Assembly: GCA_040755155.1 (NCBI GenBank)
Contig: JBFMBP010000032.1
Coordinates: 26,828-90,827 of the forward strand
Direction of reading: 5' to 3'
Length of the DNA stretch: 64,000 nt
Source of the DNA: Candidatus Omnitrophota bacterium
GTDB lineage: Bacteria > Hinthialibacterota > Hinthialibacteria > Hinthialibacterales > Hinthialibacteraceae
The position numbers were made by a program, and so were the translations under genes. Shown in pieces: positions 1,666 through 57,713 of this stretch. Position 1 is the first letter of the stretch. Every line of letters begins with the position of its first letter. The notes beneath the pieces are model-generated. The model did no database searches. It was given only the letters and a program-made list of their open reading frames with translations, and was not told where the DNA came from.

Positions 1666-1694
1666 TTATATACGCTCCATTATCAAAAATAAAT

Positions 1695-4226: not shown

Positions 4227-4255
4227 TTGTTATGCTCCATTTCAATAAAAAGAAT

Positions 4256-6727: not shown

Positions 6728-6829
6728 CGCCCTTCTCCTTTTCATCCAGATACCGGTTTTATCCCCCAGCGAATTGTTTATCTACTCGATAGATAATGTA
6801 AATATATCATTCCATTGCTTAAGATGGAT

Positions 6830-9280
6830 TTACTCGCACCGCAGCGCAATCATGGGATCGACGTTGGCCGCTTTGCGGGCGGGGATATAGCATGCCAATA
6901 GAGAGACGACTCCCAAAAGAATGGAAATGACAATGTAAGTTGCGGGATCGGCGGCGCCAATTCCATAGAGCGAACTGGCCAATACTCTTGTAACGGCGAA
7001 GGAGACGGCCAGGCCGATCGTCACGCCGATTAAAATCAATTTGAAACCCTGCCATACGACCATGCGCACGACGTCGTTCATCTGGGCGCCCAAGGCCATG
7101 CGTACGCCGATTTCATGAGTCCTCTGGCTGACGGAATAGGCGATAATTCCGTATATTCCCAGCGAAGAAAGTATCAGCGCCACCACGGAAACCATGGAAA
7201 CGAGAATCATGCGAAAACGTTCCATAATCATCGTATCGGTAATCAACCGATCCATGCTGCGGAGATTTTGGATGGGCATGTCGGGATCGATCGCCCGGAT
7301 TTGTTGCCGTACCGCCGGAGCGAGCTTGTAAGGATCGCCTTTCGTACGAATGGCGAAACAGATCGAACCTCCGGGACGATGCAGGAAAGGCGTAAAAATC
7401 GCCGGACGGAATTCGCTCGTCATGCCGTATTCTTTGACGTTGCCGACGACGCCGACGATTTCGTAGGGGTGGGAATCCCAATCGGGAATCGTTAGGTATT
7501 TCCCGATAGGATCGCCGCCATTCTCGATGCGCCGCGCCAAAAACTCATTGATAATAATCCGGCGGCTTTCCGAATTTTCGTCATCCGGCGAAAAAAATCG
7601 GCCTTTCAACAAAGAAATTTTCATGGCTTGGAAATAGGCGGGATTGATTTGGCGGATTTCCGCCGTTTGTACATCTCGCGAATCCCCCGATTCCCGGCCC
7701 GGAATTTCGTAAACCGCGCTCGTTCCCCAGGTCAAAGGCAAAATGCTGGTAACTCCGGCCGACTCCGCGCCGGGAATCTTTTCGATGCGTTCGATGGCGT
7801 TTCTGTAGAAGGCTGTTTTTTGATGGTCTTCTTTATATTTGCTATTGGTGAGAGGGAGATGGAATGTAAGAAGATTATCCGAATCGAAACCAATATCGAT
7901 ATGTTGGAGACGGGCGAAACTATTGACTAACAATCCCGCGCCAATCAATAGAATCAAAGATAAAGCGATTTCGCTTACGACCAGATAACGCAGAATGCGC
8001 CCGCTCTTCGTTCGTCCAACTGAACCGCGTCCTCCTTCGTTCAAAGTTTCCACGATGTTGGTTTTGGAGGTTTGCAGCGCCGGAGCCAGACCAAACAACA
8101 ATCCCGTCAGAATGGAGACGGCGAATGTAAATCCTAACACATTAATATCAATGCCGGCGCGCAGGATAAATGGCGCAAGCCCGGGAGGCAGAAGACCAAC
8201 CATCAGATCCAATCCCCACAGCGTCAACATCAATCCGCCAATTCCGCCCAAGCAAGAGAGAATGACGCTTTCCGTCAATATTTGACGTATGATGCGAAAA
8301 CGGCTGGCGCCAAGAGAGGTGCGAATGGCGATTTCTTTCTGCCGGATTCCGGCGCGAGCCAGGAGCAGGCTGGCGACGATCGAACAGGCCAACAAAAGCA
8401 CGAAGCCCACTGCGCCATGAAGAACGATTAACGTCTGCGTCATCAGACGCACCAAGCGATCGATCATCGGTTCGACAAATAGATGGTATTTTTGGTTAGC
8501 TTCGGGATACTCCTTTTCGAGATTTTTGGAGATCACATCGATTTCGGCGCGGGCTTGTTGCAAAGAAACGCCTTCCTTCAACATAGCGACCGCGTTGTAA
8601 TAACGGTTGTTGCGATTTTCTTTTACGCGATCGCTTGGTAAGGGAAGCCACATTTTCGCTTCGCCTTCCAAAAAACCCATTTCCGATGGCAGCACTCCTA
8701 GAACGGTATACGGCGTTCCATCCAAAAAAATCTTGCGGTTCAGTATATCCTTGTCTCCGCCGAAATGTTCTTTCCAATAACCGTACCCTAATAATACGAC
8801 TCGTTCCTTTCCTGGCTGTTCTTCTTCGGCGGAAAAGGGCCTGCCGAGAGTCATTGACAGCGTACCGGTCGTCCGAAATATTTCTGCTGTCATCATATAA
8901 ACGGAAATTCTCTCCGGCTCGCCATCTCCCGTCAGGTTATACCAATTCACCGTAACGAGAGCGAGCGAATCGAAAGACTGGCTTTGTCGCTTCAAATCCA
9001 AGTAATTCGGTCCGGATATGGCGGTGCTGTTGACATCCTCGCCTTCTTGAATTTCGCAAACGCGCATCATCCGCTCCAGATGGGGAAACGGCATGGGACT
9101 CAACATGATGGAATTCACTAAGCTGAAAATCGTCGAATTCGCGCCAATGCCGATCGTCAACGCCAAAACCGCCAACAGCGTAATCCACCGGTTTTTGACT
9201 AACATTCGGATGCCGAAACGAACGTCTTGCAAAAATGTTGACATGTTTTCGATTCCATATTTTCTATTTTCTTTGCCCAT
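6830..9280 (-). CDS. ADOP-type duplicated FtsX/MacB-like ABC permease (paralog 4)
   Basis: 816-aa ORF with the same architecture (..EIAIRTSLGASRFRI.. / ..EIGVRMALGAQMNDV..), ending ..VDPMIALRCE. By homology the start could be the internal ATG at 9244 (MSTFLQDVRFGIRML). Confidence 0.88.
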   Translation of the reverse strand: MGKENRKYGIENMSTFLQDVRFGIRMLVKNRWITLLAVLALTIGIGANSTIFSLVNSIMLSPMPFPHLERMMRVCEIQEGEDVNSTAISGPNYLDLKRQSQSFDSLALVTVNWYNLTGDGEPERISVYMMTAEIFRTTGTLSMTLGRPFSAEEEQPGKERVVLLGYGYWKEHFGGDKDILNRKIFLDGTPYTVLGVLPSEMGFLEGEAKMWLPLPSDRVKENRNNRYYNAVAMLKEGVSLQQARAEIDVISKNLEKEYPEANQKYHLFVEPMIDRLVRLMTQTLIVLHGAVGFVLLLACSIVASLLLARAGIRQKEIAIRTSLGASRFRIIRQILTESVILSCLGGIGGLMLTLWGLDLMVGLLPPGLAPFILRAGIDINVLGFTFAVSILTGLLFGLAPALQTSKTNIVETLNEGGRGSVGRTKSGRILRYLVVSEIALSLILLIGAGLLVNSFARLQHIDIGFDSDNLLTFHLPLTNSKYKEDHQKTAFYRNAIERIEKIPGAESAGVTSILPLTWGTSAVYEIPGRESGDSRDVQTAEIRQINPAYFQAMKISLLKGRFFSPDDENSESRRIIINEFLARRIENGGDPIGKYLTIPDWDSHPYEIVGVVGNVKEYGMTSEFRPAIFTPFLHRPGGSICFAIRTKGDPYKLAPAVRQQIRAIDPDMPIQNLRSMDRLITDTMIMERFRMILVSMVSVVALILSSLGIYGIIAYSVSQRTHEIGVRMALGAQMNDVVRMVVWQGFKLILIGVTIGLAVSFAVTRVLASSLYGIGAADPATYIVISILLGVVSLLACYIPARKAANVDPMIALRCE

Positions 9281-10042: not shown

Positions 10043-10125
10043 GGCGCCTCTCCTTTACCGTTTGGCTATTGCTTTTTCGTTTATAAGTTTTCTAGTAATT
10101 TAATAACTCATGTTACGCAATCCCA

Positions 10126-10156
10126 TTCCCTCGCCCTCTGGGAGAGGGTTAGGGTG
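10126..10156. repeat. Half-copy of the nested-palindrome repeat family (ttccctcgccctctgggagagggttagggtg)
   Basis: Matches the right arms (reverse complement) of the full elements at 14639-14800 and 25619-25712, including the flanking catgttacg motif at 10109-10118. Lies in the 194-bp spacer between the two ATPase genes. Confidence 0.7.
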
Positions 10157-10173
10157 TGGGCTTTTAATCTGTG

Positions 10174-10205
10174 TAGGGTGGGCTCAAAGCGAAGCGTAGC
10201 CCATC
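10174..10205 (+). repeat. REP-like hairpin, family B (tagggtgggctcaaagcgaagcgtagcccatc)
   Basis: Stem gggtgggct/agcccatc(c). Related copies at 17331-17365, 24449-24483, 25010-25043 and 57639-57670. Confidence 0.75.
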
Positions 10206-10235
10206 ATTCTCCTACTAAAAATTCACGTCGCTCCG

Positions 10236-14638: not shown

Positions 14639-14800
14639 TTGTTACGCATGAATGCCATTTTTCAAGGAATTTGCCGTCTTTACAATTCCTCTCCCAAGAT
14701 GGGGAGAGGTTAGGTGAGGGTTGATTTGATTGAACTTATAACCCCTCACCCTAACCCTCTCCCAAAGGGCGAGGGAATAGAAATACGTAACATGCGTTAT
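14639..14800. repeat. Nested-palindrome element, full copy
   Basis: Left arm ..ttcctctcccaagatggggagaggttaggtgagggttg and right arm caacccctcaccctaaccctctcccaaagggcgagggaa are inverted copies. Ends are gttacgcatg / catgcgtta. Fills the gap between two convergent stop codons (14635 and 14806), so it could act as a bidirectional terminator. Confidence 0.75.
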
Positions 14801-17302: not shown

Positions 17303-17330
17303 TAATTTGTTCCTTTCTTCAATGGGGCAA

Positions 17331-17365
17331 TGGTGGGCTACGCTTTGCTTTGAGCCAGCCCTACA
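17331..17365 (-). repeat. REP-like hairpin, family B
   Basis: tggtgggctacgctttgctttgagccagccctaca is the reverse orientation of the 10174 copy. Lies between the esterase stop and the deacetylase start. Confidence 0.7.
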
Positions 17366-20706: not shown

Positions 20707-20882
20707 ATAATCCTAAAAATAGTGATTAGTGACAAGTGACGAGTGATTAGTAAAAGAAATTCAGTGAGTTATAAATACTTTCCGCTCGCCTTTTGGGTAA
20801 TAAGGATGCTATTACGCATTCTTATTAAAAAATAAGGATTAATATTCTCAAACAAATCGCCAACTGTTTTTTTTAGGATTAT
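20707..20882 (+). mobile_element. MITE-like non-coding element, copy 1 (176 bp, 13-nt terminal inverted repeats)
   Basis: TIRs ataatcctaaaaa / tttttaggattat. Four tandem heptamers agtgatt-agtgaca-agtgacg-agtgatt at 20721-20751. A second copy of the same length and orientation lies at 33576-33751, nearly identical over the first ~55 nt and clearly related over the rest. Confidence 0.7.
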
Positions 20883-20965
20883 TGACTTTCATTATGAAAA
20901 ACGATTTTTAGTAAAACGCAATATCCGATAACCTTCAATCCATAAACATACCTTTAGAGGGGGCT

Positions 20966-21385: not shown

Positions 21386-21676
21386 ATGATCGAAATTCAC
21401 CAGACAGAGGCCTAAGCCCAATGGTTCGACAGTTTGCGAGACCGGCAAGCGCGAGCGCGAATTGATATTCGTATTCGCCGTTTGTCGCTGGGAAACTTCG
21501 GAGACGTTAGACCCGTCGGTGAAGGCATCTCGGAATTACGCATCGACTACGGTCCGGGTTATAGAGTATATTTCAAAATACGCGAACGTTCATTGGTAAT
21601 CCTTCTTGCAGGCGGCGATAAACGCTCCCAAGAACGGGATATTTATACAGCGATCAATCTGGCGCGCGAATTGTAG
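21386..21676 (+). pseudogene. RelE/ParE-superfamily addiction-module killer gene (TIGR02683-like) interrupted by an in-frame TAA at codon 10
   Basis: Reading from the ATG at 21386 gives MIEIHQTEA-stop(21413-21415)-AQWFDSLRDRQARARIDIRIRRLSLGNFGDVRPVGEGISELRIDYGPGYRVYFKIRERSLVILLAGGDKRSQERDI... The stop sits where family members carry an aromatic residue. The ORF track only recovers the part from the TTG at 21434. Confidence 0.75.
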
Positions 21677-21685
21677 GAGATTCTC

Positions 21686-21979
21686 ATGGCAAAAACCCTA
21701 ATCCAGCCTTGGGATGCGGCCGAACATTTGAAAACCAAGGAGGACATGGCTGCCTATCTGGAAGCCGCGCTTGAAGATGGCGATCCTTCAATGATAACAG
21801 CGGCCTTGGGAGACATCGCGCGGGCCAAAGGTATAACGCAAATCGCTCGCGAAACTGGCATTGAATGCGAAAGCCTCAATAAAGCGCTGTCGCCGGAAGG
21901 CCATCCGGATTTCGCCACTGTTCTCAAAATAGTGCGGGCATTGGGTCTGTGCTTACATGCCGCCACTCCGTGCGCCTAA
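21686..21979 (+). CDS. Addiction-module antidote protein, HigA-family HTH (TIGR02684-like)
   Basis: 97 aa, 9 nt after the toxin stop. ..AYLEAALEDGDPSMITAALGDIARAKGITQIARETGI..ESLNKALSPEGHPDFATVLKIVRALGL.. is the typical antidote sequence. Confidence 0.85.
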   Translation: MAKTLIQPWDAAEHLKTKEDMAAYLEAALEDGDPSMITAALGDIARAKGITQIARETGIECESLNKALSPEGHPDFATVLKIVRALGLCLHAATPCA

Positions 21980-22144
21980 TCAAGAAAAGACTGCGCCGAT
22001 TCCGCGCCGATTGCTCCGCGCGAAAAGAACAAGATCGCACAAATAAGGCATAGCCGCCATCCGCTTCGCTCGACCCGCCGCCTCTCTGGAGTATAATGAA
22101 CATCGCCTTTATCGAGTCACCTAATTTCCTAATCAAGAGCGGCG

Positions 22145-22729
22145 ATGAGCGCAGTTTTGGGCGAGATTATTTATACCAGCACCACCGAGATCGTCGGCCA
22201 GTGCGTCAGGAACCAGCCGTCTCCGGCTTACGGGTCATTCATCCGCGCCGGGCGGGATAATGCCTGCGTGGGCGTGGTCTATAACGTGGAAACCGCCAGC
22301 ATCGATCCCCACCGCCGTCCTTCCGCCTTGGGCGTCCCCGAAGATCAAATCCAACAATACTATCCGCAACTAGCCGGGCTGCTGCGCTCGGAATTTCAAG
22401 CATTGCTCATCGGCTCTTTGAACGGCGGCCAATTTCTATTCGGCCTGCCCGCCATCCCGCCCGCGCTGCACGCCGAGACGCGGGAATGCGGCGACGAAGA
22501 AGTGCGGCGCATCGGCGAAGATTTGGGTTTTCTGCGCCTGCTCTATTCCTCCGGTAAATCGTCCGCGGAAGAGCTGCTAGTCAGCGCTTGCCGCCGCCTT
22601 CTGGCGGCTTATAGCTGGGAGCGGCGCTGCGCCGTGCGCATAGGCAAAGCCGTCTCGGAATTGTTTCGCGACGATTACGACTCGCTGCGGCGCATCGCGG
22701 CGCGGTTGGAAGCGGGGATGAATCCATGA
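22145..22729 (+). CDS. Hypothetical protein, N-terminal beta-barrel-like segment plus helical domain; partner of the HerA-like ATPase
   Basis: 194 aa. Its stop overlaps the next start (ATGA at 22726-22729). The N-terminus LGEIIYTSTTEIVGQCV..YGSFIRAG..CVGVVYNVET reads like a HAS/OB-type barrel. I see no nuclease or NTPase motif. Confidence 0.6.
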   Translation: MSAVLGEIIYTSTTEIVGQCVRNQPSPAYGSFIRAGRDNACVGVVYNVETASIDPHRRPSALGVPEDQIQQYYPQLAGLLRSEFQALLIGSLNGGQFLFGLPAIPPALHAETRECGDEEVRRIGEDLGFLRLLYSSGKSSAEELLVSACRRLLAAYSWERRCAVRIGKAVSELFRDDYDSLRRIAARLEAGMNP

Positions 22730-24408
22730 AAAATCCCATTCTCGGCGTCATCACATCCGGCTCGCTGGCGGAAGGATTGGAGATGCGGCTGCATCCTTCG
22801 CATTCGGTGGAGCAGGTGCGGGCGGGAAAGTTCGTTGTGGTGGAGGGGCGCGAATTCGATTTCTTTTCCATGATTACGGATGCGCGGCTAGACGCTTCCA
22901 GCCAATCGATTCTGCGCGATCCGCCGCCGGGGGAATCGCTGCTGGCGGACGTTCTCGCGGGGGATCACACCTACGCCACCGTGTCGCTCAAGCCCATGCT
23001 GATGATGCAGCGGACGGCGGCGCAAGGGCGCATCGACCGCGAGGAGCTGCTGCGGCCGGTCAAGAGCATCCCCGCCCATTTCTCGACGGTGCGGGAAGCG
23101 TCGCGCGAGGATGTGAACCGCGTCTTCGGCGAAGAAGAGGAACGTTCGGCGCGCTATTTCAATCTGGGAGCGCCGCTGGATATGGAGAACGTCGAGGTCT
23201 GCCTGGATTTGGACCGCTTCATCGAACGCTCCAACGGCATTTTCGGTAAAACGGGTACCGGCAAAACCTTTTTGACGCGGCTGGTATTGGCCGGTTTAAT
23301 TCAAGGCAACAAGGCCGTCAACCTGATCTTCGACATGCACAGCGAATACGGCTGGCAAACGCGCTCGGAAGGCGACGCGGGCAACGACGCATTCGTCAAA
23401 GGATTGAAAAACATATTCGCCGCCCGGGGCAACGTCCTCATCTGCACTCTTGATCCCGAATCGGCAAGCAAGCGAGCCGTGAAGTGGGATTTGGAGTTGC
23501 GAATCCCGCTCTCGGAAATCGAGGTGGAGGATATCGCGCCTTTGCAGGAGGAACTAAACCTGCACGCCACCGCCATCGAGACGGCGTATATCCTGCGCAA
23601 TCGTTATAACAAAAATTGGATGAAAACGCTGCTGGACATCCCGCCGGAAGAGATGAAAGATAGAGCGGAAGAACTCGGCGCCAATAAAGAGAGCATGGCG
23701 GCGCTGTACCGCAAACTGCGGGCTATCCGCGATCTGCCGTTTATCGCCGATAAAGAGGAAGAAAAGATCGCAGGCGCATCTTCGAATCGCGTCAACATCG
23801 CCCGGCTTATCAACGAATTGCGCAGCGGCAAGCATATCGATCTGGAATTCGGACGCATCTCCAGCCTGCTGGCTTATCTGCTTGTCGCTAACCTCATCTC
23901 GCGGCGGATTCATCACGAGTGGGTGAAGCAGGCGGAAAAATACATGGCGAGCCAGGACGCCAAAGACCGGCCCAAGCCGCTAGTCATCACCATCGAGGAA
24001 GCGCACAAGTTTCTCAATCCCTCGGCGGCGCGGCAGACCATCTTCGGAACCATCGCGCGGGAATTGCGCAAATATTTCGTATCGCTGTTGATCGTGGATC
24101 AGCGGCCATCGGGAATCGACGACGAAATCCTCTCGCAATTGGGAACGCGCATCACGGCGCTGCTCAACGACGAAAAGGACATTCAAGCCGTATTCACGGG
24201 AGTATCCGGCGCCGCCGCATTGCGCAACGTGCTGGCCTCGCTGGACAGCAAGCAGCAAGCGCTGATCCTAGGCCACGCCACGCCCATGCCCATCGTTGTC
24301 AAAACCCGGCATTACGGAGAGGAATTTTATAAAGCCATGGGCATGAAATCCGCCGAAGAAAAAACGGACCGCCTGCGGAAGATTACGAATCTGTTTCCGG
24401 AGGGGTAG
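22726..24408 (+). CDS. HerA/FtsK-superfamily ATPase (DUF87-type, HerA-like) with N-terminal HAS-barrel
   Basis: 560 aa. Barrel GVITSGSLAEGLEMRL..VRAGKFVVVEG, Walker A GIFGKTGTGKTF, Walker B LVITIEEAHKFL, and the sensor/arginine-finger region SLLIVDQRPSGIDDEILSQLGTRITALLNDEKD. Confidence 0.85.
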   Translation: MKNPILGVITSGSLAEGLEMRLHPSHSVEQVRAGKFVVVEGREFDFFSMITDARLDASSQSILRDPPPGESLLADVLAGDHTYATVSLKPMLMMQRTAAQGRIDREELLRPVKSIPAHFSTVREASREDVNRVFGEEEERSARYFNLGAPLDMENVEVCLDLDRFIERSNGIFGKTGTGKTFLTRLVLAGLIQGNKAVNLIFDMHSEYGWQTRSEGDAGNDAFVKGLKNIFAARGNVLICTLDPESASKRAVKWDLELRIPLSEIEVEDIAPLQEELNLHATAIETAYILRNRYNKNWMKTLLDIPPEEMKDRAEELGANKESMAALYRKLRAIRDLPFIADKEEEKIAGASSNRVNIARLINELRSGKHIDLEFGRISSLLAYLLVANLISRRIHHEWVKQAEKYMASQDAKDRPKPLVITIEEAHKFLNPSAARQTIFGTIARELRKYFVSLLIVDQRPSGIDDEILSQLGTRITALLNDEKDIQAVFTGVSGAAALRNVLASLDSKQQALILGHATPMPIVVKTRHYGEEFYKAMGMKSAEEKTDRLRKITNLFPEG

Positions 24409-24448
24409 AATTGGAGGGGCTTTAGTTGTTCGGATAGTACCTATCAAA

Positions 24449-24483
24449 TGGTGGGTTACGCTTCGCTTTGAGCCCACCCTACT
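24449..24483 (-). repeat. REP-like hairpin, family B
   Basis: tggtgggttacgcttcgctttgagcccaccctact, 41 nt after the ATPase stop. Possible terminator for both convergent units. Confidence 0.7.
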
Positions 24484-24502: not shown

Positions 24503-24814
24503 TCATTGCAAATACCACTCCTCTTCGCCGGTTTCCGAATTTTCCGTCGGTTTTACGATGCCATTAAATCGCTGAAGGGTATGCCAATCTTCGCGTTTTT
24601 GAGTCGCTTTCAATTCGCGGAGTTTATCGATGGCGTCGTCGATATCGTTCGCCTGCAACTGCGCATTCGCAAGTTCCTGGCCTTCAATGATAATCCGGTT
24701 CATGATTTTTTCCTTTTCCGCCAAAGCCGCCTTTTCGACTATTTCGTCACTATTATTCTCGGTCAAATCCTTCCTTCTACCCAAAACGCGCATCCCCCGG
24801 CGATCGATGCTCAA
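24503..24814 (-). CDS. Hypothetical small acidic coiled-coil protein (start uncertain)
   Basis: ORF-track start is a TTG. Alternative ATGs at 24793 and 24703; the latter has an AAGGA RBS and gives a 66-aa product MNRIIIEGQELANAQLQ... No family recognised. Confidence 0.4.
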   Translation of the reverse strand: MSIDRRGMRVLGRRKDLTENNSDEIVEKAALAEKEKIMNRIIIEGQELANAQLQANDIDDAIDKLRELKATQKREDWHTLQRFNGIVKPTENSETGEEEWYLQ

Positions 24815-24999
24815 CGCGATATTCGTTTAATAACGCGAGCAATTCTTTGAAGTCCGATTGAATCTCCATAATATTGCCTGCGCAATTCTTCGACGGCGGC
24901 GATGCGCTCCTCGGGCGTTTTGCTCAGCCAATAGGCCAAATCTTCCTTGACAGAAGAGGCGTCTTGCAGACGGCATTTCTTAATCGACTTCTCTATCAT
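24811..24999 (-). CDS. Hypothetical small protein
   Basis: I trim the ORF-track start (a TTG at 25023 inside a REP copy) to the ATG at 24999: MIEKSIKKCRLQDASSVKEDLAYWLSKTPEERIAAVEELRRQYYG..LQRIARVIKR. It resembles small stand-alone proteins I have seen unannotated elsewhere. No function assigned. Confidence 0.4.
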   Translation of the reverse strand: MIEKSIKKCRLQDASSVKEDLAYWLSKTPEERIAAVEELRRQYYGDSIGLQRIARVIKRISR

Positions 25000-25009
25000 A
25001 TTCGCTAAG

Positions 25010-25043
25010 TAGGGTGGGCTCAAAGCGAAGCGAAGCCCACCGT
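25010..25043 (+). repeat. REP-like hairpin, family B
   Basis: tagggtgggctcaaagcgaagcgaagcccaccgt, inverted relative to the 24449-24483 copy. Together they bracket the two tiny ORFs. Confidence 0.7.
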
Positions 25044-25062
25044 ATAACTAATAACGCAACGT

Positions 25063-25539: not shown

Positions 25540-25618
25540 GGATTTCCCTCAATCCGCAGAAACAATTCCCAAATCACATCTAAAAATACAAATCGCTTTT
25601 AAATTTGTCGCTTTTCAA

Positions 25619-25712
25619 ATCCCTCTCCCAAGATTGGGAGAGGTTAGGCGAGGGTTGATACTATTAGACTTATTTTTCCCTCACCCTAACCCTCTCCCAT
25701 AGGGCGAGGGAA
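25619..25712. repeat. Nested-palindrome element, full copy
   Basis: tccctctcccaagattgggagaggttaggcgagggttga ... tccctcaccctaaccctctcccatagggcgaggga. The arms are inverted copies, and ctctccca/tgggagag forms an inner hairpin. Confidence 0.75.
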
Positions 25713-25776
25713 CAGGAATTGCGAAAAATGAGTTATTTAAACCGGCTCGCTCCAACGCCCATAGGCGCATCGGAAC

Positions 25777-33575: not shown

Positions 33576-33751
33576 ATAATCCTAAAAACAGTGATAAGTG
33601 ACAAGTGACGAGTGATTAGTAAAAGAAATTCAGCGATTTACGAAATACATTCCGTTCACCTTATGGGTGAGAAGGATATTATTACGCATCATTATGAAAA
33701 ACAAGGATTAATATTCTCATACTAATTGCCAACTGCCGTTTTTAGGATTAT
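33576..33751 (+). mobile_element. MITE-like non-coding element, copy 2 (176 bp)
   Basis: Same 13-nt TIRs, same heptamer block and same length as copy 1 at 20707-20882. Confidence 0.7.
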
Positions 33752-33774
33752 TAAAACTCGAAAATCGGTTTGAC

Positions 33775-35978: not shown

Positions 35979-38900
35979 TCATCGTTCAATGAACGAATGC
36001 TCAATGTGCGCTAATGTTTTCAATTCATTCTCGAACTCGCCAAGGAACCGTTCGATCGTTTCGCGCCGGTGAATTTTCCTGTTGTATCCAACATGGAAAA
36101 TAAGGCTGTTATGAAGCGTCATGCCGTCCATTTCCAATAAATGGCGGCGCTCCAATTCCGGGGCGATAGAGGCGGCGTCGAATTCTTCGGCGAGAGTGAA
36201 AACGCCGTTATTTTGAAATAAACCATCCACTCGGCCCATATAATTGAACAAAATATCGGGAGGAGGGAAGAAGCAAATTTCTTTTTCCAACGTTTCCGGC
36301 GTGAGATATTTCAGAACGCCATATCCGATCCCCTTATCGGGAATGGATTGCAGCATCTTCTGGATAAAAATAAGTTGTTCTTCGATATCTTTCTTGATAG
36401 GCAAATCCAGCAAGACGGGATAATGGCTGGTAAACCAACCCACTGTCCGGCTGATATCGAGACCTTTTTCAATCTCTTCCCGTCCATGGCCCGTAAGCGC
36501 AATCCTAAAGCGTTTTCCTGGGCGCCAACGGTTTAAGGCGCGGGCTAAAGCCGTCAACAATATAGCGATCGCGTCCGCGTTTTGGTTGAGACTGGCGGTT
36601 TGTTGCAACCGATCCGCATCATCCAGCGAGAGTTCCAGGCGCATCGATTTCACGTCGCCATAACGATTCTCGCTCTCTGGAAAATCGCGAGGAATCGAGA
36701 CCGCATCCGCCGAATCCACTTCCATCCAGTAAGATTTTTGCGCGAGTAGATCGGTGCGGACGCTATATTGGCGCAGAGCTTCCGACCATTGTTGATAGGA
36801 AGCCGTTTTAACAGGTAGAACCGGAGCAACTCCGTTCATCGCTTGTTTCAAGCTATCCGTCAGGTCTTCGAGGAGAAAACGCCAGGAAACGGCGTCCACG
36901 GCCAGATGATGAACTGTCAGCAAGAGATAATCATTCGTTTTCAATCGATAGAGGACGGATTTCATCAAGGGGCCGGTTTTCAAATCGAATCCATCCTGCA
37001 GGCATGCCGCATGGCGGATCATGGCTTGGGCGCCGTCGTTCTCGCGGCGGAAATCCATGACTGAAAATTGGATGGGAAGCGGGTCGCCGGCCATTTTCTG
37101 AATTACGCCGGAGGGCGTGAAACGGTAGCGCATTCGCAACGCATCGTGATGATTTTGGATCGCTTGCAGGGCGGTTCGCAGCGCCTCTTCCGGCAGACGA
37201 TCTTTCGCCCACAGCCAAACAGTATGATTGAAATGATGGAGGTTGGTAGAGTGTTCCTCGAAGAACCAACGTTGTATGGGAGTCAGTTCAACGATGCCCG
37301 CCGCGGTCTCATGAACGGCGGAGCGTTGGTTATGATTCAGTTTTTTGCATAGCCCCGCGATGGTTTTCCATTCGAACAAATCCCGTAAGGAAAGACGAAT
37401 GCCCGCCTTATGCAGACGGCTGGCAACCTGAATGGCTTTGATGGAATCGCCGCCTAGATCGAAAAAGGAATCGTGAACGCCTACTTTATCCTTTCCTAGC
37501 GCTTCTTGCCAGACTCTGGCGATTTCGATTTCCATTTTCGTTTTCGGAGGAACATAATTGTCGCCGCCGCTTTTCGATTGCGGCGAAGGCAATGATTTTT
37601 TATCGATTTTTCGATTGGGCGTCAGAGGCAATTCGTCCAAGCGAACGATATATTTAGGAACCATGTAAAAGGGCAAGACGCTGAATAAATGGCGGCGCAG
37701 TTCCAAGGAATCGCATTCGTTTCCGGCGGAGAAGTAAGCCGCCAATTCCTGGGTTCCATCTTTTCCCGCCAACGCTATAACCGTTGTTTGTTGCACGCCG
37801 GGATAGGCGCGCAGGCGATTTTCGATTTCCCCAAGTTCGATGCGGCAGCCGTGAATTTTCATTTGATCGTCTTCGCGGCCTAGAAATTCGATGCTTCCGT
37901 CCTCCAGCCAGCGGCCGATATCGCCGGTGCGGTAGAGCCGACCGTCTTCCTGGAAAGGGCTGGGGATGAATTTCTCATCCGTCTGTTCCGGGCGATTCAA
38001 ATAACCGCGCGCCAAACCTGCGCCTGCTAGGCAAATCTCTCCCGGCGCGCCGATGGGAAGCGGTTGGAGCGCGCGATCCAGAATACGGATGCGGGTGTTG
38101 ACTATCGGTTTGCCGATGGGAATGGCGCCGGGAAACGAATCGCCCGGCTTGATTTCCTGGTAGGCGGCGCACACCGTGGCTTCCGTCGGACCGTAGGCGT
38201 TGAAATAACGCAGGTTTTTTGCGTAATGGAGCGCGTCTTCCGCATAAGCCGCCTCGCCCGCCGTAATCATGACGCGCAAGCCGGGGAAATCCGCCTGCTC
38301 CAAAGCGCGAAGATAGGAGGGGGGAAATGTAACCACGGTCGCGCCATGACGCATCATATAAGCTCGCAGCGCATGTCCATCGCGGATGGTCTCTTCGCTC
38401 GCCAAGATCAAAGCGGCGCCCGATAGCAAGGCCATAAATATTTCGGAAAGGGAAGCGTCGAAGGAACAAGAGGCGAATTGCAGAACGCGGTCTTGAGGCG
38501 TTACGCCGAAGCCGCGAATCTGCTCGAGGATCATATTGACAAAGCCGCGATGTTCCACCATCACGCCTTTGGGCGTTCCCGTCGAGCCGGATGTATAGAT
38601 TACGTAAGCGAGATGGCGGCTGGCGCAGAATTTTGAAGGATTCTCGGATGGTCCATCGGCGATGGTTTGGATATTCAATGACAATCCGGGAAGAATGGCT
38701 TCGATTCTCTTGGTTGAGGCGGCGTCCGCAAGCGCAACCCGGCAACCGCAGTCTTGCAGAATGAATTGGATTCGCGCTTCGGGATAGGCGGGATCGATGG
38801 GAGTATAGGCGCCGCCCGCCTTCATGGCGCCCAACAGCGCTGCGATCGCCCAATCGCTTCGTTCCAGAAAGACTCCGATGCGGTCGTCGGGTTGAATGGA

Positions 38901-40457
38901 GTAATGTTGGCGCAAATAATGGGCGATGCGGTTAGCGCGTTCGTTCAATTCGCGATAAGTGAGACGGATTTCCTGAAAGAATACTGCAACATGATCCGGC
39001 GTTTTTTCTGCCTGTTCTTCCCAGAGATCAATCAGCGTCTTTTCTTCGGAGATGGGAACCGTGGGGCTGTTAAAATCATAAAGAATTCGCCGTTTTTCCG
39101 TCTCCGCGAGAATGCCCAGTAGTTTCAGAGGAATGCCGCCGCCGCAAATAACGCCACTGGCGATAGCGCGAAGATGTCCCGCCATGCGCTCAACCTGACG
39201 GCGCGAATAAGCGTTTCCATTGTAATTGAATTTGATTTCTATTTCCGCGCCGGGATGAACCAGAAGGCCGAAATTGTAATGAACTTGTTCGAACGTCCGG
39301 ATGCCTTCCACTTTGAAGCCCAGCCCGGAGTCCTCCGTTATTTCCTGCAGTTTGGAATCGATCGGATAGTTTTCGAAAACTAATAGATGATCAAGCAGTC
39401 CATGCTTGAGGGGCGATTCGGCTTGAATTTCGGCGAAGGGAAAGAAATCGTAAGGAGCGCTTTCCGTCGAAGCGATTTGGATTTGCTTCATCAAATCCAT
39501 GAAAGAAAGATCGTCATGCAATCGGATGCGGACGGGGATCGTATTGATGAACAATCCCACCAATCGCTCGACGCCGTTAACGTCCGCTGGACGTCCAGAA
39601 GCCACGGCTCCGAAGACGACGTCGTCCGCCCCGTTGTAACGGCTAAGCAAAACACCCCAGAGGCATTGCATCGCCGTGTTCAGCGTCGCGCCGTTCTGCG
39701 CCGCCAACCGGTTCAAGGCGGCGCTGGTTTCGGCGTCCAGGCGGAAATCGTATTCTTCAACGGCGTAGCCTTCCTTCCGTTTGGCGGCGTTCGCTCCTAA
39801 TGGAGAGGCGAGAGATTCGTAACCGGATAAATAATCCCGCCAATAGGCGCGCGCCGCTTCCCGATCCCGCGATTCAATCCAATCCAGATATTCGCCACAG
39901 GATACCGGTTCCAGCAGATGGGGAGGCCGGTTTTCTTTCAACGCTTGGTAAATTTCCAAAAATTCCGCTTGCAGAATGCCGCCGGACCAGCCGTCGATCA
40001 AAATATGCGGATGGCTCCAGATCATTTCGTAGAGAGAATCGCCAAGTTGAAGTATGGATATGCGCATAAGGACGTCGTGGCGCAGATCGAAGCCCCGGTT
40101 TCTATCTTCTTCTTTGTAATTTTTTAAAAAATCCTGCTGCGCCTTCGCATCGAGCGAACGTAAGTCTTTATAAGCGAATTCGGCGGATCTCTCTTTGAGA
40201 ATGAGATGGAGAGGTTGGGATGCGCCTTCGTGAACGAAGGCCGATCGCAGAATTTCATGCCGCTCCGACAAGAATTTCCAGGCGGCTTCGCAACGCTTCG
40301 CCTCGAAATCGCCGCGGAGGCGATAGGCGGTCTGTTCGAAATAAGCCCAGGATTTGGGTTCGTAGAGAGCGTGAAAAAGCATCCCCTCCTGCATGGGCAG
40401 CAGGGGATAAATGTTTTGCAGATTTTTTTTGGATACGGCGCCCGGTTGATTACTCAT
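35979..40457 (-). CDS. NRPS, terminal module C-A-T-E (no thioesterase or reductase)
   Basis: 1492 aa. DCL-type C domain (LLPMQEGMLFH..; SHPHILIDGW at 39985-40020). A domain (SGSTGTPKG at 38565-38610; ..NRKIDKKSLP at 37590-37635). T domain ([10 protein letters not shown] at 37428-37460). E domain (HHLAVDAVSW at 36881-36915, TGHGREE, VGWFTS), then stop. The ATG overlaps the upstream stop (ATGAGTAA, 40450-40457). Confidence 0.92.
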   Translation of the reverse strand: MSNQPGAVSKKNLQNIYPLLPMQEGMLFHALYEPKSWAYFEQTAYRLRGDFEAKRCEAAWKFLSERHEILRSAFVHEGASQPLHLILKERSAEFAYKDLRSLDAKAQQDFLKNYKEEDRNRGFDLRHDVLMRISILQLGDSLYEMIWSHPHILIDGWSGGILQAEFLEIYQALKENRPPHLLEPVSCGEYLDWIESRDREAARAYWRDYLSGYESLASPLGANAAKRKEGYAVEEYDFRLDAETSAALNRLAAQNGATLNTAMQCLWGVLLSRYNGADDVVFGAVASGRPADVNGVERLVGLFINTIPVRIRLHDDLSFMDLMKQIQIASTESAPYDFFPFAEIQAESPLKHGLLDHLLVFENYPIDSKLQEITEDSGLGFKVEGIRTFEQVHYNFGLLVHPGAEIEIKFNYNGNAYSRRQVERMAGHLRAIASGVICGGGIPLKLLGILAETEKRRILYDFNSPTVPISEEKTLIDLWEEQAEKTPDHVAVFFQEIRLTYRELNERANRIAHYLRQHYSIQPDDRIGVFLERSDWAIAALLGAMKAGGAYTPIDPAYPEARIQFILQDCGCRVALADAASTKRIEAILPGLSLNIQTIADGPSENPSKFCASRHLAYVIYTSGSTGTPKGVMVEHRGFVNMILEQIRGFGVTPQDRVLQFASCSFDASLSEIFMALLSGAALILASEETIRDGHALRAYMMRHGATVVTFPPSYLRALEQADFPGLRVMITAGEAAYAEDALHYAKNLRYFNAYGPTEATVCAAYQEIKPGDSFPGAIPIGKPIVNTRIRILDRALQPLPIGAPGEICLAGAGLARGYLNRPEQTDEKFIPSPFQEDGRLYRTGDIGRWLEDGSIEFLGREDDQMKIHGCRIELGEIENRLRAYPGVQQTTVIALAGKDGTQELAAYFSAGNECDSLELRRHLFSVLPFYMVPKYIVRLDELPLTPNRKIDKKSLPSPQSKSGGDNYVPPKTKMEIEIARVWQEALGKDKVGVHDSFFDLGGDSIKAIQVASRLHKAGIRLSLRDLFEWKTIAGLCKKLNHNQRSAVHETAAGIVELTPIQRWFFEEHSTNLHHFNHTVWLWAKDRLPEEALRTALQAIQNHHDALRMRYRFTPSGVIQKMAGDPLPIQFSVMDFRRENDGAQAMIRHAACLQDGFDLKTGPLMKSVLYRLKTNDYLLLTVHHLAVDAVSWRFLLEDLTDSLKQAMNGVAPVLPVKTASYQQWSEALRQYSVRTDLLAQKSYWMEVDSADAVSIPRDFPESENRYGDVKSMRLELSLDDADRLQQTASLNQNADAIAILLTALARALNRWRPGKRFRIALTGHGREEIEKGLDISRTVGWFTSHYPVLLDLPIKKDIEEQLIFIQKMLQSIPDKGIGYGVLKYLTPETLEKEICFFPPPDILFNYMGRVDGLFQNNGVFTLAEEFDAASIAPELERRHLLEMDGMTLHNSLIFHVGYNRKIHRRETIERFLGEFENELKTLAHIEHSFIER
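35982..37320 (-). other. Terminal epimerization (E) domain of the last NRPS module (approximate bounds)
   Basis: [11 protein letters not shown].., HHFNH, HHLAVDAVSW, TGHGREE, VGWFTS, FNYMG. It runs to the last residue of the protein. Confidence 0.8.
37590..39080 (-). other. Adenylation domain A4 (approximate bounds), Tyr-like specificity code
   Basis: Manual alignment to GrsA-PheA gives D-A-S-T-I-A-A-V-C-K (FDASLSE, VVTFPPS, MITAGEA, FNAYGPTEATVCA). This is closest to published Tyr-type codes DAST[VI]AAVCK. Confidence 0.6.
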
Positions 40458-57591: not shown

Positions 57592-57638
57592 ATTCCAACT
57601 TCCCGAAACTTCGCATTTTCAATAGGTGAACTATCATG

Positions 57639-57670
57639 CAGGGTAGGCTAAAAGCGAAGTACAGCCTTCC
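57639..57670 (+). repeat. REP-like hairpin, family B (diverged copy)
   Basis: gcagggtaggctaaaagcgaagtacagccttc, in the spacer between the two megasynthase genes. Confidence 0.55.
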
Positions 57671-57713
57671 TTGTCAATATCTAATAACTACTCCTGAGAA
57701 AAAAATTAAAACT

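What the first reader, a model, noticed from the sequence alone, without database searches (positions are those of the whole stretch)
22145..24408. Translationally coupled two-gene module: barrel-like 194-aa protein plus HerA/FtsK-type ATPase, next to a decayed TA locus
The 560-aa protein has the full HerA signature: HAS-barrel, Walker A GKTGTGKT, Walker B ITIEEAH, and DQRPS..LLNDEKD. Its partner is not a recognisable NurA nuclease, Sir2 or DUF4297 protein, which are the known HerA partners in DNA repair and anti-phage systems. The partner is a 194-aa protein whose N-terminus itself looks like a HAS/OB barrel, followed by a helical domain with no catalytic motif that I can see. The two genes overlap by ATGA. 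The pair sits in an accessory-looking patch with a MITE copy upstream, a toxin-antitoxin pair directly upstream and a REP hairpin downstream. That is the typical context of defence islands. It could be an uncharacterised HerA-based defence or DNA-processing module with an effector-less adaptor. Alternatively the effector may be recruited from elsewhere.
Basis: partly seen in the sequence, partly recalled or inferred. Interest (0 to 1): 0.72.

Follow-up and report, generated by a model that had tools for sequence, protein, structure and literature searches.

The report
HerA motor with unnamed small partner
The two overlapping genes encode a HerA DNA-pumping ATPase and a small, unnamed barrel protein that in hundreds of other bacterial species sits between the NurA nuclease gene and herA, so the pair is most likely part of a DNA-end-processing machine with an undescribed third subunit and not a new anti-phage system.

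Summary
ORFs 22145-22729 (194 aa) and 22726-24408 (560 aa) overlap by ATGA. The large protein is a HerA (DUF87 115 bits, HAS-barrel, Walker A/B). The small protein matches no curated family, but its model (pLDDT 88.6) matches only the N-terminal HAS-barrel region of solved HerA structures.

The defence reading is not supported. The small protein belongs to a large unnamed family: 661 clusters at 50% identity and at least 566 GTDB species. In 79 loci found with the small protein, 60 read NurA-small-HerA, 9 of them followed by Mre11-Rad50. Six read NurA-small with HerA elsewhere. Starting from NurA, 57 of 81 loci carry the small gene next.

It is therefore a conserved, apparently undescribed third component of bacterial NurA/HerA systems, probably an adaptor on the barrel face of HerA where NurA docks.

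In the window's lineage (12 of 12 species) the pair has no NurA within 10 kb, and the flanks are not syntenic. One Armatimonadota MAG carries small-HerA and NurA on separate contigs, so an unlinked NurA is plausible here but not shown.

I found no relatives of the small protein on plasmids, phages or viral contigs, and no defence genes nearby, only a toxin-antitoxin pair whose toxin has a nonsense codon.

The parts
22070..22097 (+). Promoter-like site (TCGACC-16-TATAAT) about 48 nt upstream of the small gene. Tentative own promoter of the pair.
   Evidence: Consensus scan, 10 of 12 matches. Consensus match only, not evidence of function.
22145..22729 (+). Gene for the 194-aa small partner: an N-terminal HAS-type beta-barrel (about residues 5-115, with a conserved helical insert at 52-82) and a C-terminal five-helix domain (117-190). 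Member of an unnamed family found next to nurA and/or herA.
   Evidence: ORF. No significant Pfam, NCBIfam or PADLOC family. AF2 pLDDT 88.6. Foldseek hits are HerA-family chains only. 661 clusters at 50% identity. Operon position NurA-small-HerA.
22726..22729 (+). ATGA overlap: the herA start codon overlaps the stop codon of the small gene, suggesting translational coupling.
   Evidence: Sequence. The same 4-nt overlap was estimated in 13 of 77 small-HerA pairs, and other overlaps or gaps of at most 20 nt in 20 more (rough start assignment).
22726..24408 (+). Gene for a 560-aa HerA-family ATPase: HAS-barrel (residues 7-91), DUF87 ATPase core (146-395) and a HerA C-terminal region (413-528).
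   Evidence: Pfam DUF87 5e-33, HAS-barrel 7e-7. 50-60% identical relatives in at least 588 GTDB species. Distant from all solved HerAs (at most 89 bits).
23245..23268 (+). Walker A / P-loop GKTGTGKT (HerA residues 174-181).
   Evidence: Sequence. Invariant in alignment A3.
23986..24006 (+). Walker B region ITIEEAH (HerA residues 421-427).
   Evidence: Sequence. I423, E424, E425, A426 and H427 are invariant in A3.

Best explanation
The pair encodes two subunits of a bacterial NurA/HerA-type DNA-end-processing machine.

The 560-aa protein is the hexameric HerA dsDNA translocase, from a distinct and strongly conserved bacterial subfamily. The 194-aa protein is its dedicated small subunit. It is a stand-alone HAS-barrel plus helical-domain protein without catalytic residues, made in step with HerA through the ATGA overlap.

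Inferred mechanism: the small subunit docks by its barrel on the HAS-barrel face of the HerA ring. In solved HerA-NurA complexes this is the face that binds the NurA nuclease dimer. There it would act as a collar or adaptor between motor and nuclease, or gate DNA passing between them.

In this lineage nurA is not next to the pair and is presumed to lie elsewhere in the genome.

Shown: the gene identities, the fold, the operon associations and the family size. Inferred: physical binding, the docking site, stoichiometry, the end-resection function, and the presence of NurA in this genome.
For: (1) HerA identity: Pfam DUF87 and HAS-barrel, with Walker A/B motifs.

(2) Small-protein fold: AF2 pLDDT 88.6. 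All listed Foldseek PDB hits are HerA-family chains. The strand and helix order of its first ~95 residues parallels the N-terminus of the window's own HerA in the low-confidence HerA model.

(3) Operon position, seeded on the small protein (at least 566 species). Of 79 loci:
- 60 read NurA-small-HerA, and 9 of these continue with Mre11-Rad50;
- 6 read NurA-small;
- 7 read small-HerA;
- 5 have the small gene alone.

(4) Operon position, seeded on NurA. Of 81 loci, 57 have the small gene downstream of NurA.

(5) Independent gene calls with Pfam labels:
- NurA-190aa-HerA-Metallophos-Rad50 in a Bacillota contig;
- groES-groEL-NurA-small with a 4-nt overlap and no HerA;
- NurA (PF09376), Mre11 and Rad50 with zinc hook verified in several lineages.

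(6) The small gene stays with NurA when HerA is elsewhere (L183, L165, L190) and with HerA when NurA is elsewhere (window clade, KSB3, L043). This fits a protein that works with both.

(7) Split genomes exist. Armatimonadota MAG JBBIJA01 has small-HerA on one contig (L043) and NurA alone on another (L196). Thermodesulfobacteriota MAG BQJP01 has HerA alone (L027) and NurA-small (L190).

(8) In D. radiodurans and Sulfolobus the HAS-barrel face of HerA is the NurA-binding face (PMC9960219, read).

(9) All family-wide conserved residues of the small protein (E7, P27, G30, R57, P74, P102, P105, H109) are kept in the window's copy.
Against: - No NurA, Mre11 or Rad50 lies in the 64-kb window or within 10 kb of the pair in any of the 12 species of its lineage. 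I could not show that these genomes encode NurA at all. The NurA-seeded scan returned none of them among its best 80, which is inconclusive.
- No complex was modelled, so the docking site and adaptor role are inference.
- Sequence profiles of the small protein and of HerA show no detectable similarity (hhalign). The barrel relationship rests on structure prediction alone.
- The in vivo role of bacterial NurA-HerA is itself not settled, so 'end resection for repair' is borrowed from archaeal and Deinococcus work.
- Many close HerA relatives (cyanobacteria, Chloroflexaceae) have neither the small gene nor nurA within 8 kb.
Confidence: 0.6

Rival explanations
1. The pair is a self-contained anti-phage or anti-plasmid defence system. 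HerA would sense or translocate foreign DNA, and the small protein would be an adaptor for an effector that is absent or recruited from elsewhere.
For: - HerA is the motor of several defence systems, and the best PADLOC matches are HerA models (PDLC04105, 1.1e-34).
- The pair sits at different genomic places in each species.
- Toxin-antitoxin genes flank it in the window, in L003 (HicA) and in L005, where a type III CRISPR-Cas locus also follows.
- Mobile-looking repeats lie nearby.
Against: - The small protein has no PADLOC hit.
- The NCBIfam anti-phage HerA equivalogs score 77-80 bits against cut-offs of 800-850.
- The small protein has no relatives in plasmids, phages or IMG/VR.
- There are no defence genes among the window neighbours.
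- The family is embedded in NurA/Mre11/Rad50 operons and next to groESL, tsaD and dnaG-rpoD in other phyla.
- It is present in all 12 sampled species of the lineage, unlike the patchy spread typical of defence genes.
- Loss of synteny is expected at 42-60% protein identity between these species.
Confidence: 0.1
2. In this lineage the small protein and HerA have become a NurA-independent two-component DNA translocase, with the small protein capping or gating the ring. It would serve some process other than end resection, such as DNA transfer, segregation or remodelling.
For: - 12 of 12 species keep the pair tightly coupled with no NurA, Mre11 or Rad50 within 10 kb.
- The pair has its own promoter-like site.
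- HerA relatives alone, without small gene or NurA nearby, are common in cyanobacteria.
- HerA-family ATPases act in DNA transfer in Thermus and archaea (titles listed).
Against: - Genes of this system are demonstrably scattered in other genomes that still have NurA (L043 with L196, L027 with L190).
- All family-wide conserved residues of the small protein are retained in the window copy, so there is no sign of relaxed constraint on a lost interface.
- Absence of NurA from these genomes was not shown.
Confidence: 0.15
3. The system is the same, but the small protein has a different role. It would be a regulator or assembly factor, acting as a HAS-barrel decoy that occupies the NurA-binding face or controls HerA hexamer formation. 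It would keep the motor-nuclease off until needed and would not be a structural bridge.
For: - It has the same fold as the HerA domain that binds NurA (PMC9960219).
- It has no catalytic motif.
- The most conserved stretches (residues 51-60, 71-90, 101-110) include a helical insert of lower model confidence (pLDDT 65-74), as expected for a segment that orders only on binding a partner.
Against: - Translational coupling to HerA (window) or to NurA (L183, L169) suggests near-stoichiometric production, which is more typical of a structural subunit.
- No data here discriminate between bridge and brake.
Confidence: 0.2

Closest known systems
Archaeal HerA-NurA(-Mre11-Rad50) DNA end-resection system (Sulfolobus, Pyrococcus, Thermococcus; PDB 4d2i, 9x1l)
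   Same: HerA with HAS-barrel, RecA-like core and Walker motifs. In relatives of the window pair the same four genes (nurA, herA, mre11, rad50) form one operon.
   Different: - The archaeal system has two components at the motor-nuclease core. The bacterial operons here carry an extra ~190-aa HAS-barrel gene between nurA and herA.
- The window HerA scores only 70-76 bits against the NCBIfam archaeal HerA equivalogs, whose cut-offs are 800-970.
- The window locus itself lacks nurA, mre11 and rad50.
Deinococcus radiodurans NurA-HerA (PDB 7wrw, 7wrx, 7f6d; PMC9960219)
   Same: A bacterial NurA-HerA pair. NurA docks on the HAS-barrel face of the HerA hexamer, which is the face the small protein is proposed to occupy.
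   Different: - It is a two-gene operon. The paper does not mention a small third subunit.
- D. radiodurans HerA is not detected by sequence search with the window HerA or its profile, so it belongs to a different HerA subfamily.
Anti-phage HerA systems: Sir2-HerA (Nezha; 8j4u, 8sub, 8wiv), DUF4297-HerA (9c1m, 8ziq), TdpAB (8wet)
   Same: A HerA hexamer paired with a partner encoded in the adjacent gene that binds the HAS-barrel side. These are the nearest solved sequences (8wiv at 74-89 bits).
   Different: - The partner here has no Sir2, DUF4297 or nuclease domain.
- NCBIfam anti-phage HerA equivalogs are not met.
- The small protein has no PADLOC hit.
- The genomic associations are with repair genes, not defence genes.
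Synechocystis Sll0284-type cyanobacterial DUF87/HAS-barrel proteins (PMC8136920)
   Same: Probably the same bacterial HerA subfamily. Cyanobacterial relatives are 50-53% identical to the window HerA. The paper describes such proteins as largely undescribed.
   Different: Cyanobacterial loci show HerA alone, with no small gene or nurA within 8 kb. I did not test directly whether Sll0284 itself is an orthologue.

Membership tests
HerA / FtsK-HerA superfamily ATPase (Pfam PF01935 DUF87 + PF09378 HAS-barrel) | Central DUF87 ATPase domain above the Pfam gathering score | tested here: met
   115.5 bits against a cut-off of 23.2, residues 146-395.
HerA / FtsK-HerA superfamily ATPase (Pfam PF01935 DUF87 + PF09378 HAS-barrel) | N-terminal HAS-barrel domain | tested here: met
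   29.7 bits against a cut-off of 25.2, residues 7-91.
HerA / FtsK-HerA superfamily ATPase (Pfam PF01935 DUF87 + PF09378 HAS-barrel) | Walker A and Walker B motifs intact | tested here: met
   GKTGTGKT at 174-181 and ITIEEAH at 421-427, invariant across the subfamily.
HerA / FtsK-HerA superfamily ATPase (Pfam PF01935 DUF87 + PF09378 HAS-barrel) | Hexameric ring that translocates dsDNA | not testable with these tools
   The monomer AF2 model is poor (pLDDT 64). No multimer modelling was available.
NurA-HerA(-Mre11-Rad50) end-resection system | NurA nuclease (PF09376) encoded with HerA | tested here: not met
   No NurA in the 64-kb window or within 10 kb in the 12 clade loci (NurA HMM from 80 sequences). 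The feature is met in relatives: 60 of 79 small-protein loci, with Pfam NurA verified.
NurA-HerA(-Mre11-Rad50) end-resection system | Linkage to mre11-rad50 | tested here: not met
   Absent from the window and the clade loci. Present in 9 of 79 small-protein-seeded loci, from Entotheonella/Tectimicrobiota, a Bacillota MAG and an unclassified bacterium (L146). Also present in L008/L009 (Bacillota) and in NurA-seeded L213 (Thermoanaerobacterium, mre11 at the locus edge).
NurA-HerA(-Mre11-Rad50) end-resection system | HerA matches the curated repair-HerA equivalogs (NCBIfam NF040819, NF040937) | tested here: not met
   69.6 and 76.3 bits against cut-offs of 970 and 800. This is a separate subfamily.
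NurA-HerA(-Mre11-Rad50) end-resection system | NurA present somewhere in the same genome | tested here: inconclusive
   The NurA-seeded scan of GTDB genomes kept only the best 80 of at least 585 hits, and none came from clade assemblies. The whole genomes could not be read.
Anti-phage HerA systems (Sir2-HerA, DUF4297-HerA and others in PADLOC/NCBIfam) | Adjacent effector with a Sir2, DUF4297 or other known defence domain | tested here: not met
   The small protein has no Pfam, NCBIfam or PADLOC match apart from a weak HAS-barrel hit.
Anti-phage HerA systems (Sir2-HerA, DUF4297-HerA and others in PADLOC/NCBIfam) | HerA matches the anti-phage HerA equivalogs (NF042943, NF042944) | tested here: not met
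   76.5 and 79.8 bits against cut-offs of 800 and 850.
Anti-phage HerA systems (Sir2-HerA, DUF4297-HerA and others in PADLOC/NCBIfam) | Location in defence islands or on mobile elements | tested here: not met
   No PADLOC hits of note in the neighbours. No plasmid, phage or IMG/VR relatives of the small protein. Only TA genes, and in one relative a type III CRISPR locus, lie nearby. No formal enrichment statistic was computed.
Anti-phage HerA systems (Sir2-HerA, DUF4297-HerA and others in PADLOC/NCBIfam) | Protection against phage | not testable with these tools
   Needs an experiment.
Stand-alone HAS-barrel small subunit family (unnamed; defined here by alignments A1/A2) | About 190 aa; HAS-type barrel plus C-terminal helical domain; conserved E7, P27, G30, R57, P74, P102, P105, H109 and a C-terminal DDYxxL motif | tested here: met
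   The window protein scores 1e-67 against the family HMM. All these residues are present.
Stand-alone HAS-barrel small subunit family (unnamed; defined here by alignments A1/A2) | Encoded immediately upstream of the cognate HerA and/or immediately downstream of NurA | tested here: met
   In the window it lies upstream of HerA with a 4-nt overlap. The family pattern is shown.

The most novel reading that the evidence does not exclude
The ~190-aa stand-alone HAS-barrel protein is a new, obligatory third subunit that builds a second barrel ring on HerA and changes how motor and nuclease are coupled. In the window's lineage this small-HerA core has been freed from NurA altogether and works as an autonomous two-protein DNA machine, possibly in conflict with mobile DNA. 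That would be a HerA system whose only partner has no enzymatic domain.
Probability: 0.15. Interest if true: 0.65.

Novelty: new variant of a known kind. Interest (0 to 1): 0.45.

Why it matters
NurA-HerA has been studied as a two-protein motor-nuclease. Structures exist for the archaeal and Deinococcus complexes, but the role of the bacterial versions remains unclear.

The data here indicate that a large, phylogenetically broad bacterial branch carries a third, unannotated gene wedged between nurA and herA. That branch covers at least ~570 GTDB species, including Latescibacterota, Gemmatimonadota, Dehalococcoidia, Tectimicrobiota, Bacillota, Armatimonadota and KSB3. The product of the third gene has the same fold as the HerA domain that binds NurA.

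If it is an adaptor or gate, current models of how HerA feeds DNA to NurA would not transfer directly to these bacteria. The family also deserves a name and a profile so that genome annotation stops calling it 'hypothetical'.

At least one cultured carrier exists for experiments: Thermoanaerobacterium butyriciformans DSM 101588 (L213). A MAG assigned to Gemmatimonas phototrophica also carries the operon (L147/L198).

For the window itself the practical message is that this is not a new defence system candidate.

Tried and rejected
- **Similarity of the small protein to HerA's N-terminus by sequence.** The hhalign profile-profile comparison gave no signal (probability 0.35%). A PDB sequence search with the small-protein profile gave no hit at E up to 10.
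- **GTDB scan with the 55-sequence small-protein alignment A2.** I replaced it with the HerA alignment A3 and the narrower alignments A4 and A1.
- **AF2 model of HerA from A3.** Mean pLDDT is only 64, so it was not used for fold search. It served only for a qualitative comparison of secondary-structure order.
- **Modelling a small-HerA complex through a linker fusion with a paired alignment.** I prepared 25 diverse pairs but did not submit them.
- **Finding NurA in the window's own lineage.** An HMM search of the window and clade loci was negative. The NurA-seeded GTDB scan kept none of the 11 clade assemblies among its best 80. The result is inconclusive, not negative.
- **Looking for fused domains that would hint at function.** Longer family members carry only low-complexity tails, apparently unrelated C-terminal sequence (P0266) or a NurA C-terminal remnant (P0150).
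- **Literature.** Four full-text searches found no paper describing a small HAS-barrel subunit in NurA-HerA operons.
- **Foldseek against viral structures.** Nothing at E of 1e-3 or below.
- **Third database search and metagenome scan.** Not used. A NurA query would list only its 120 nearest relatives and was unlikely to surface the clade's copy.
Full report
**1. What is in the window**

Two + strand ORFs lie at the stated coordinates: 22145..22729 (194 aa) and 22726..24408 (560 aa). They overlap by ATGA.

The 560-aa protein is a HerA-family ATPase.
- Pfam gives DUF87 at 115.5 bits, HAS-barrel at 29.7 bits and a weak HerA_C match.
- Walker A (GKTGTGKT, residues 174-181), Walker B (ITIEEAH, 421-427), DQRPS and LLNDEKD are all present.
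- These motifs are invariant or nearly so among relatives.

The 194-aa protein matches nothing significant in Pfam, NCBIfam or PADLOC. The only hit is a sub-threshold HAS-barrel match at E=0.043.

An AlphaFold2 model built from 21 homologues is confident, with mean pLDDT 88.6 and pTM 0.83.
- It shows a beta-barrel at about residues 5-115, with a helical insert at 52-82.
- A five-helix C-terminal domain follows.
- In Foldseek against the PDB, all 50 listed matches are HerA-family chains from repair and anti-phage complexes (HerA or its relative TdpA). E-values run from 1.6e-7 to 1.2e-4 over 122-187 alignment columns.
- Foldseek against viral structures found nothing.

By sequence profiles the small protein and HerA are not detectably related.

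**2. The surroundings**

- The pair 21434-21979 is an HI1419/HI1420-type RelE/ParE toxin-antitoxin module. The toxin has an in-frame TAA at 21413-21415 after codon 9. With that codon masked, the product covers positions 2-94 of the 95-position model at 129.6 bits. The toxin is therefore nonsense-disrupted and the antitoxin is intact.
- A 177-bp element with terminal inverted repeats at 20707-20883 recurs at 33576-33752.
- A palindromic REP-like element at 24447-24482 has four more copies in the window.
- The other neighbours are a FliA/WhiG sigma factor, MurQ, a Gfo/Idh/MocA oxidoreductase, a type II secretion pseudopilin and small unknowns. None gives a meaningful PADLOC hit.
- A promoter-like site lies 48 nt upstream of the small gene.

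This is not a defence island.

**3. How widespread the two proteins are**

A word-indexed search with the small protein found only 20 close relatives, all named 'hypothetical'. A profile search of 1.84 billion cluster representatives found 661 clusters at E of 1e-3 or below and 435 at 1e-10 or below. Sampled members are all unnamed.

The HerA is far more conserved.
- More than 8000 database proteins match.
- Identity is 50-61% across many phyla, including Latescibacterota, Gemmatimonadota, KSB3, Chloroflexota, Cyanobacteria, Armatimonadota and Bacillota.
- At least 588 GTDB species match.
- It is distant from every solved HerA (at most 89 bits).
- It is far below the NCBIfam cut-offs for both repair and anti-phage HerA equivalogs.

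**4. The decisive evidence: gene neighbourhoods**

The first clue was a Bacillota contig whose gene calls read NurA (PF09376), a 190-aa protein, HerA, Metallophos (Mre11) and SMC/Rad50. The 190-aa protein is a clear homologue of the window's small protein.

I built HMMs for the small protein, HerA, NurA, Mre11 and Rad50, and scanned all fetched loci.

Seeding on the small protein (at least 566 species) gave 79 loci:

| Architecture | Loci |
|---|---|
| NurA-small-HerA | 51 |
| NurA-small-HerA-Mre11-Rad50 | 9 |
| NurA-small, no HerA nearby | 6 |
| small-HerA (one with an extra downstream gene) | 7 |
| small alone | 5 |
| NurA, HerA and small called in another order (L110, overlapping ORF calls) | 1 |

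Seeding on NurA (at least 585 species, 3-kb flanks) gave 81 loci. Of these, 57 have the small gene downstream of NurA, and 43 of those also have HerA.

Pfam confirms NurA in four lineages, and Mre11 and Rad50 with zinc hook in Entotheonella. An independent gene call shows groES-groEL-NurA-small with a 4-nt overlap and no HerA.

The small gene therefore sits between nurA and herA. It stays with either partner when the other is elsewhere, and it can be translationally coupled to either.

**5. The window's own lineage**

The closest HerA relatives carry names such as Candidatus Hinthialibacter and 'Omnitrophota'.

A scan with the clade alignment found 11 GTDB species. With the window, that gives 12 of 12 species with small-HerA adjacent. 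None has NurA, Mre11 or Rad50 within 10 kb, and almost no flanking genes are shared.

At 42-60% identity of the small protein between these species, loss of synteny is expected and is not evidence of mobility.

Whether these genomes encode NurA elsewhere could not be established. Such split arrangements do exist.
- Armatimonadota MAG JBBIJA01 has small-HerA on one contig (L043). NurA sits alone on another contig (L196), followed by WD40, VanW and Pth genes.
- Thermodesulfobacteriota MAG BQJP01 has HerA alone (L027) and NurA-small (L190).
- KSB3 genomes show small-HerA loci (L007, L010, L013), and other KSB3 genomes show lone NurA loci (L197, L202).

All residues conserved across the whole small-protein family are retained in the window copy.

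**6. Mechanism**

Shown:
- a HerA motor gene;
- a co-translated partner with a HAS-barrel fold and no catalytic domain;
- family-wide placement between nurA and herA, frequently with mre11-rad50.

Established knowledge: NurA dimers dock on the HAS-barrel face of the HerA hexamer, and the complex resects DNA ends (PMC9960219, read; archaeal work listed).

Inference: the small protein binds that same face as a collar or adaptor between HerA and NurA, or it regulates their coupling.

The most conserved stretches are SxDPxRRP (residues 51-60), PQLxxLLR (71-90) and LPxxPPxxH (101-110). Two of the three lie in the helical insert, where model confidence is lowest. These are candidates for partner or DNA contacts.

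I put 0.6 on the pair being part of a NurA/HerA-type DNA-end-processing machine with the small protein as an accessory subunit.
- A brake or chaperone role within the same system is a live alternative (0.2).
- A NurA-independent role in this lineage gets 0.15.
- A defence system gets 0.1.

**7. Comparison and novelty**

The system works like archaeal and Deinococcus NurA-HerA. The window locus fails the membership tests of adjacent NurA and of the curated HerA equivalogs. I therefore file it as a distinct bacterial HerA subfamily with an extra subunit, not as a canonical member.

Four full-text literature searches found no description of this small subunit. A Synechocystis study calls bacterial DUF87/HAS-barrel proteins 'largely undescribed'.

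The appropriate label is a new variant of a known kind.

Noticed in passing
window 21386-21676: The RelE/ParE-type toxin gene upstream of the pair carries an in-frame TAA at 21413-21415 (MIEIHQTEA*AQWFDSL...). The antitoxin gene (21686-21979) is intact. With the stop masked, the product matches TIGR02683 over positions 2-94 of 95.
   Followed up: yes
window 20707-20883 and 33576-33752: A 177-bp intergenic MITE-like element with terminal inverted repeats (ATAATCCTAAAAA...TTTTTAGGATTAT). The two copies are 88-94% identical.
   Followed up: partly
window 24447-24482, 25009-25054, 10173-10218, 17318-17365, 57638-57683: A REP-like palindromic element (GTAGGGTGGGCTCAAAGCGAAGCGxAGCCCACC) in five copies. 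Two inverted copies bracket a two-gene cassette of small unknown ORFs on the minus strand (24503-24814 and 24811-25023), which might be mobile or another small addiction-type module.
   Followed up: partly
window 14668-14739 / 25602-25673 and 10121-10160 / 25678-25717: A second family of intergenic repeats containing a CCCTCTCCCAAGATGGGGAGAGG-type hairpin, present in direct and inverted copies.
   Followed up: no
window 36000-51400 and 1600-9250: Blocks of diverged direct repeats (60-84% identical). One set has three copies spaced about 4.5 and 7.8 kb apart. Another has three or four copies spaced about 2.5 kb apart. Both probably reflect tandem paralogous gene clusters.
   Followed up: no
L232 4235-5578 (Dehalococcoidales); similar 1-2.5 kb gaps in L219-L261: In Dehalococcoidales the operon reads NurA, an OB-fold protein (PF12869 tRNA_anti-like, 137 aa), a 306-aa coiled-coil protein, then small and HerA. 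These could be further lineage-specific components.
   Followed up: partly
L007 7910-8506, L010 7879-8484, L013 2021-2635: In KSB3/Moduliflexota the small-HerA pair is followed by a conserved ~200-aa protein with no Pfam match. In L007 the pair lies just downstream of dnaG-rpoD, a core-genome context.
   Followed up: partly
L005/L006 12401-18840: In one relative of the window pair (the 'Omnitrophota' SURF_12 MAG) the pair is followed by a DUF4160/DUF2442 pair and a type III CRISPR-Cas (Cas10/Csm) locus. This was the only defence-type neighbourhood seen among the clade loci whose gene calls carried domain labels (L001, L003, L005).
   Followed up: partly
L028-L090 (cyanobacteria, Chloroflexaceae): HerA relatives 50-55% identical to the window protein stand alone, with no small gene or nurA within 8 kb. 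Whether those genomes encode the small protein elsewhere is unknown. In L074 the small gene lies about 6 kb upstream of HerA.
   Followed up: no
L150 1193-1783, L151 7929-8567: In Armatimonadota-like genomes the small gene stands alone next to tsaD and a nucleotidyl-transferase gene. The three genes of the system can therefore be fully dispersed.
   Followed up: partly
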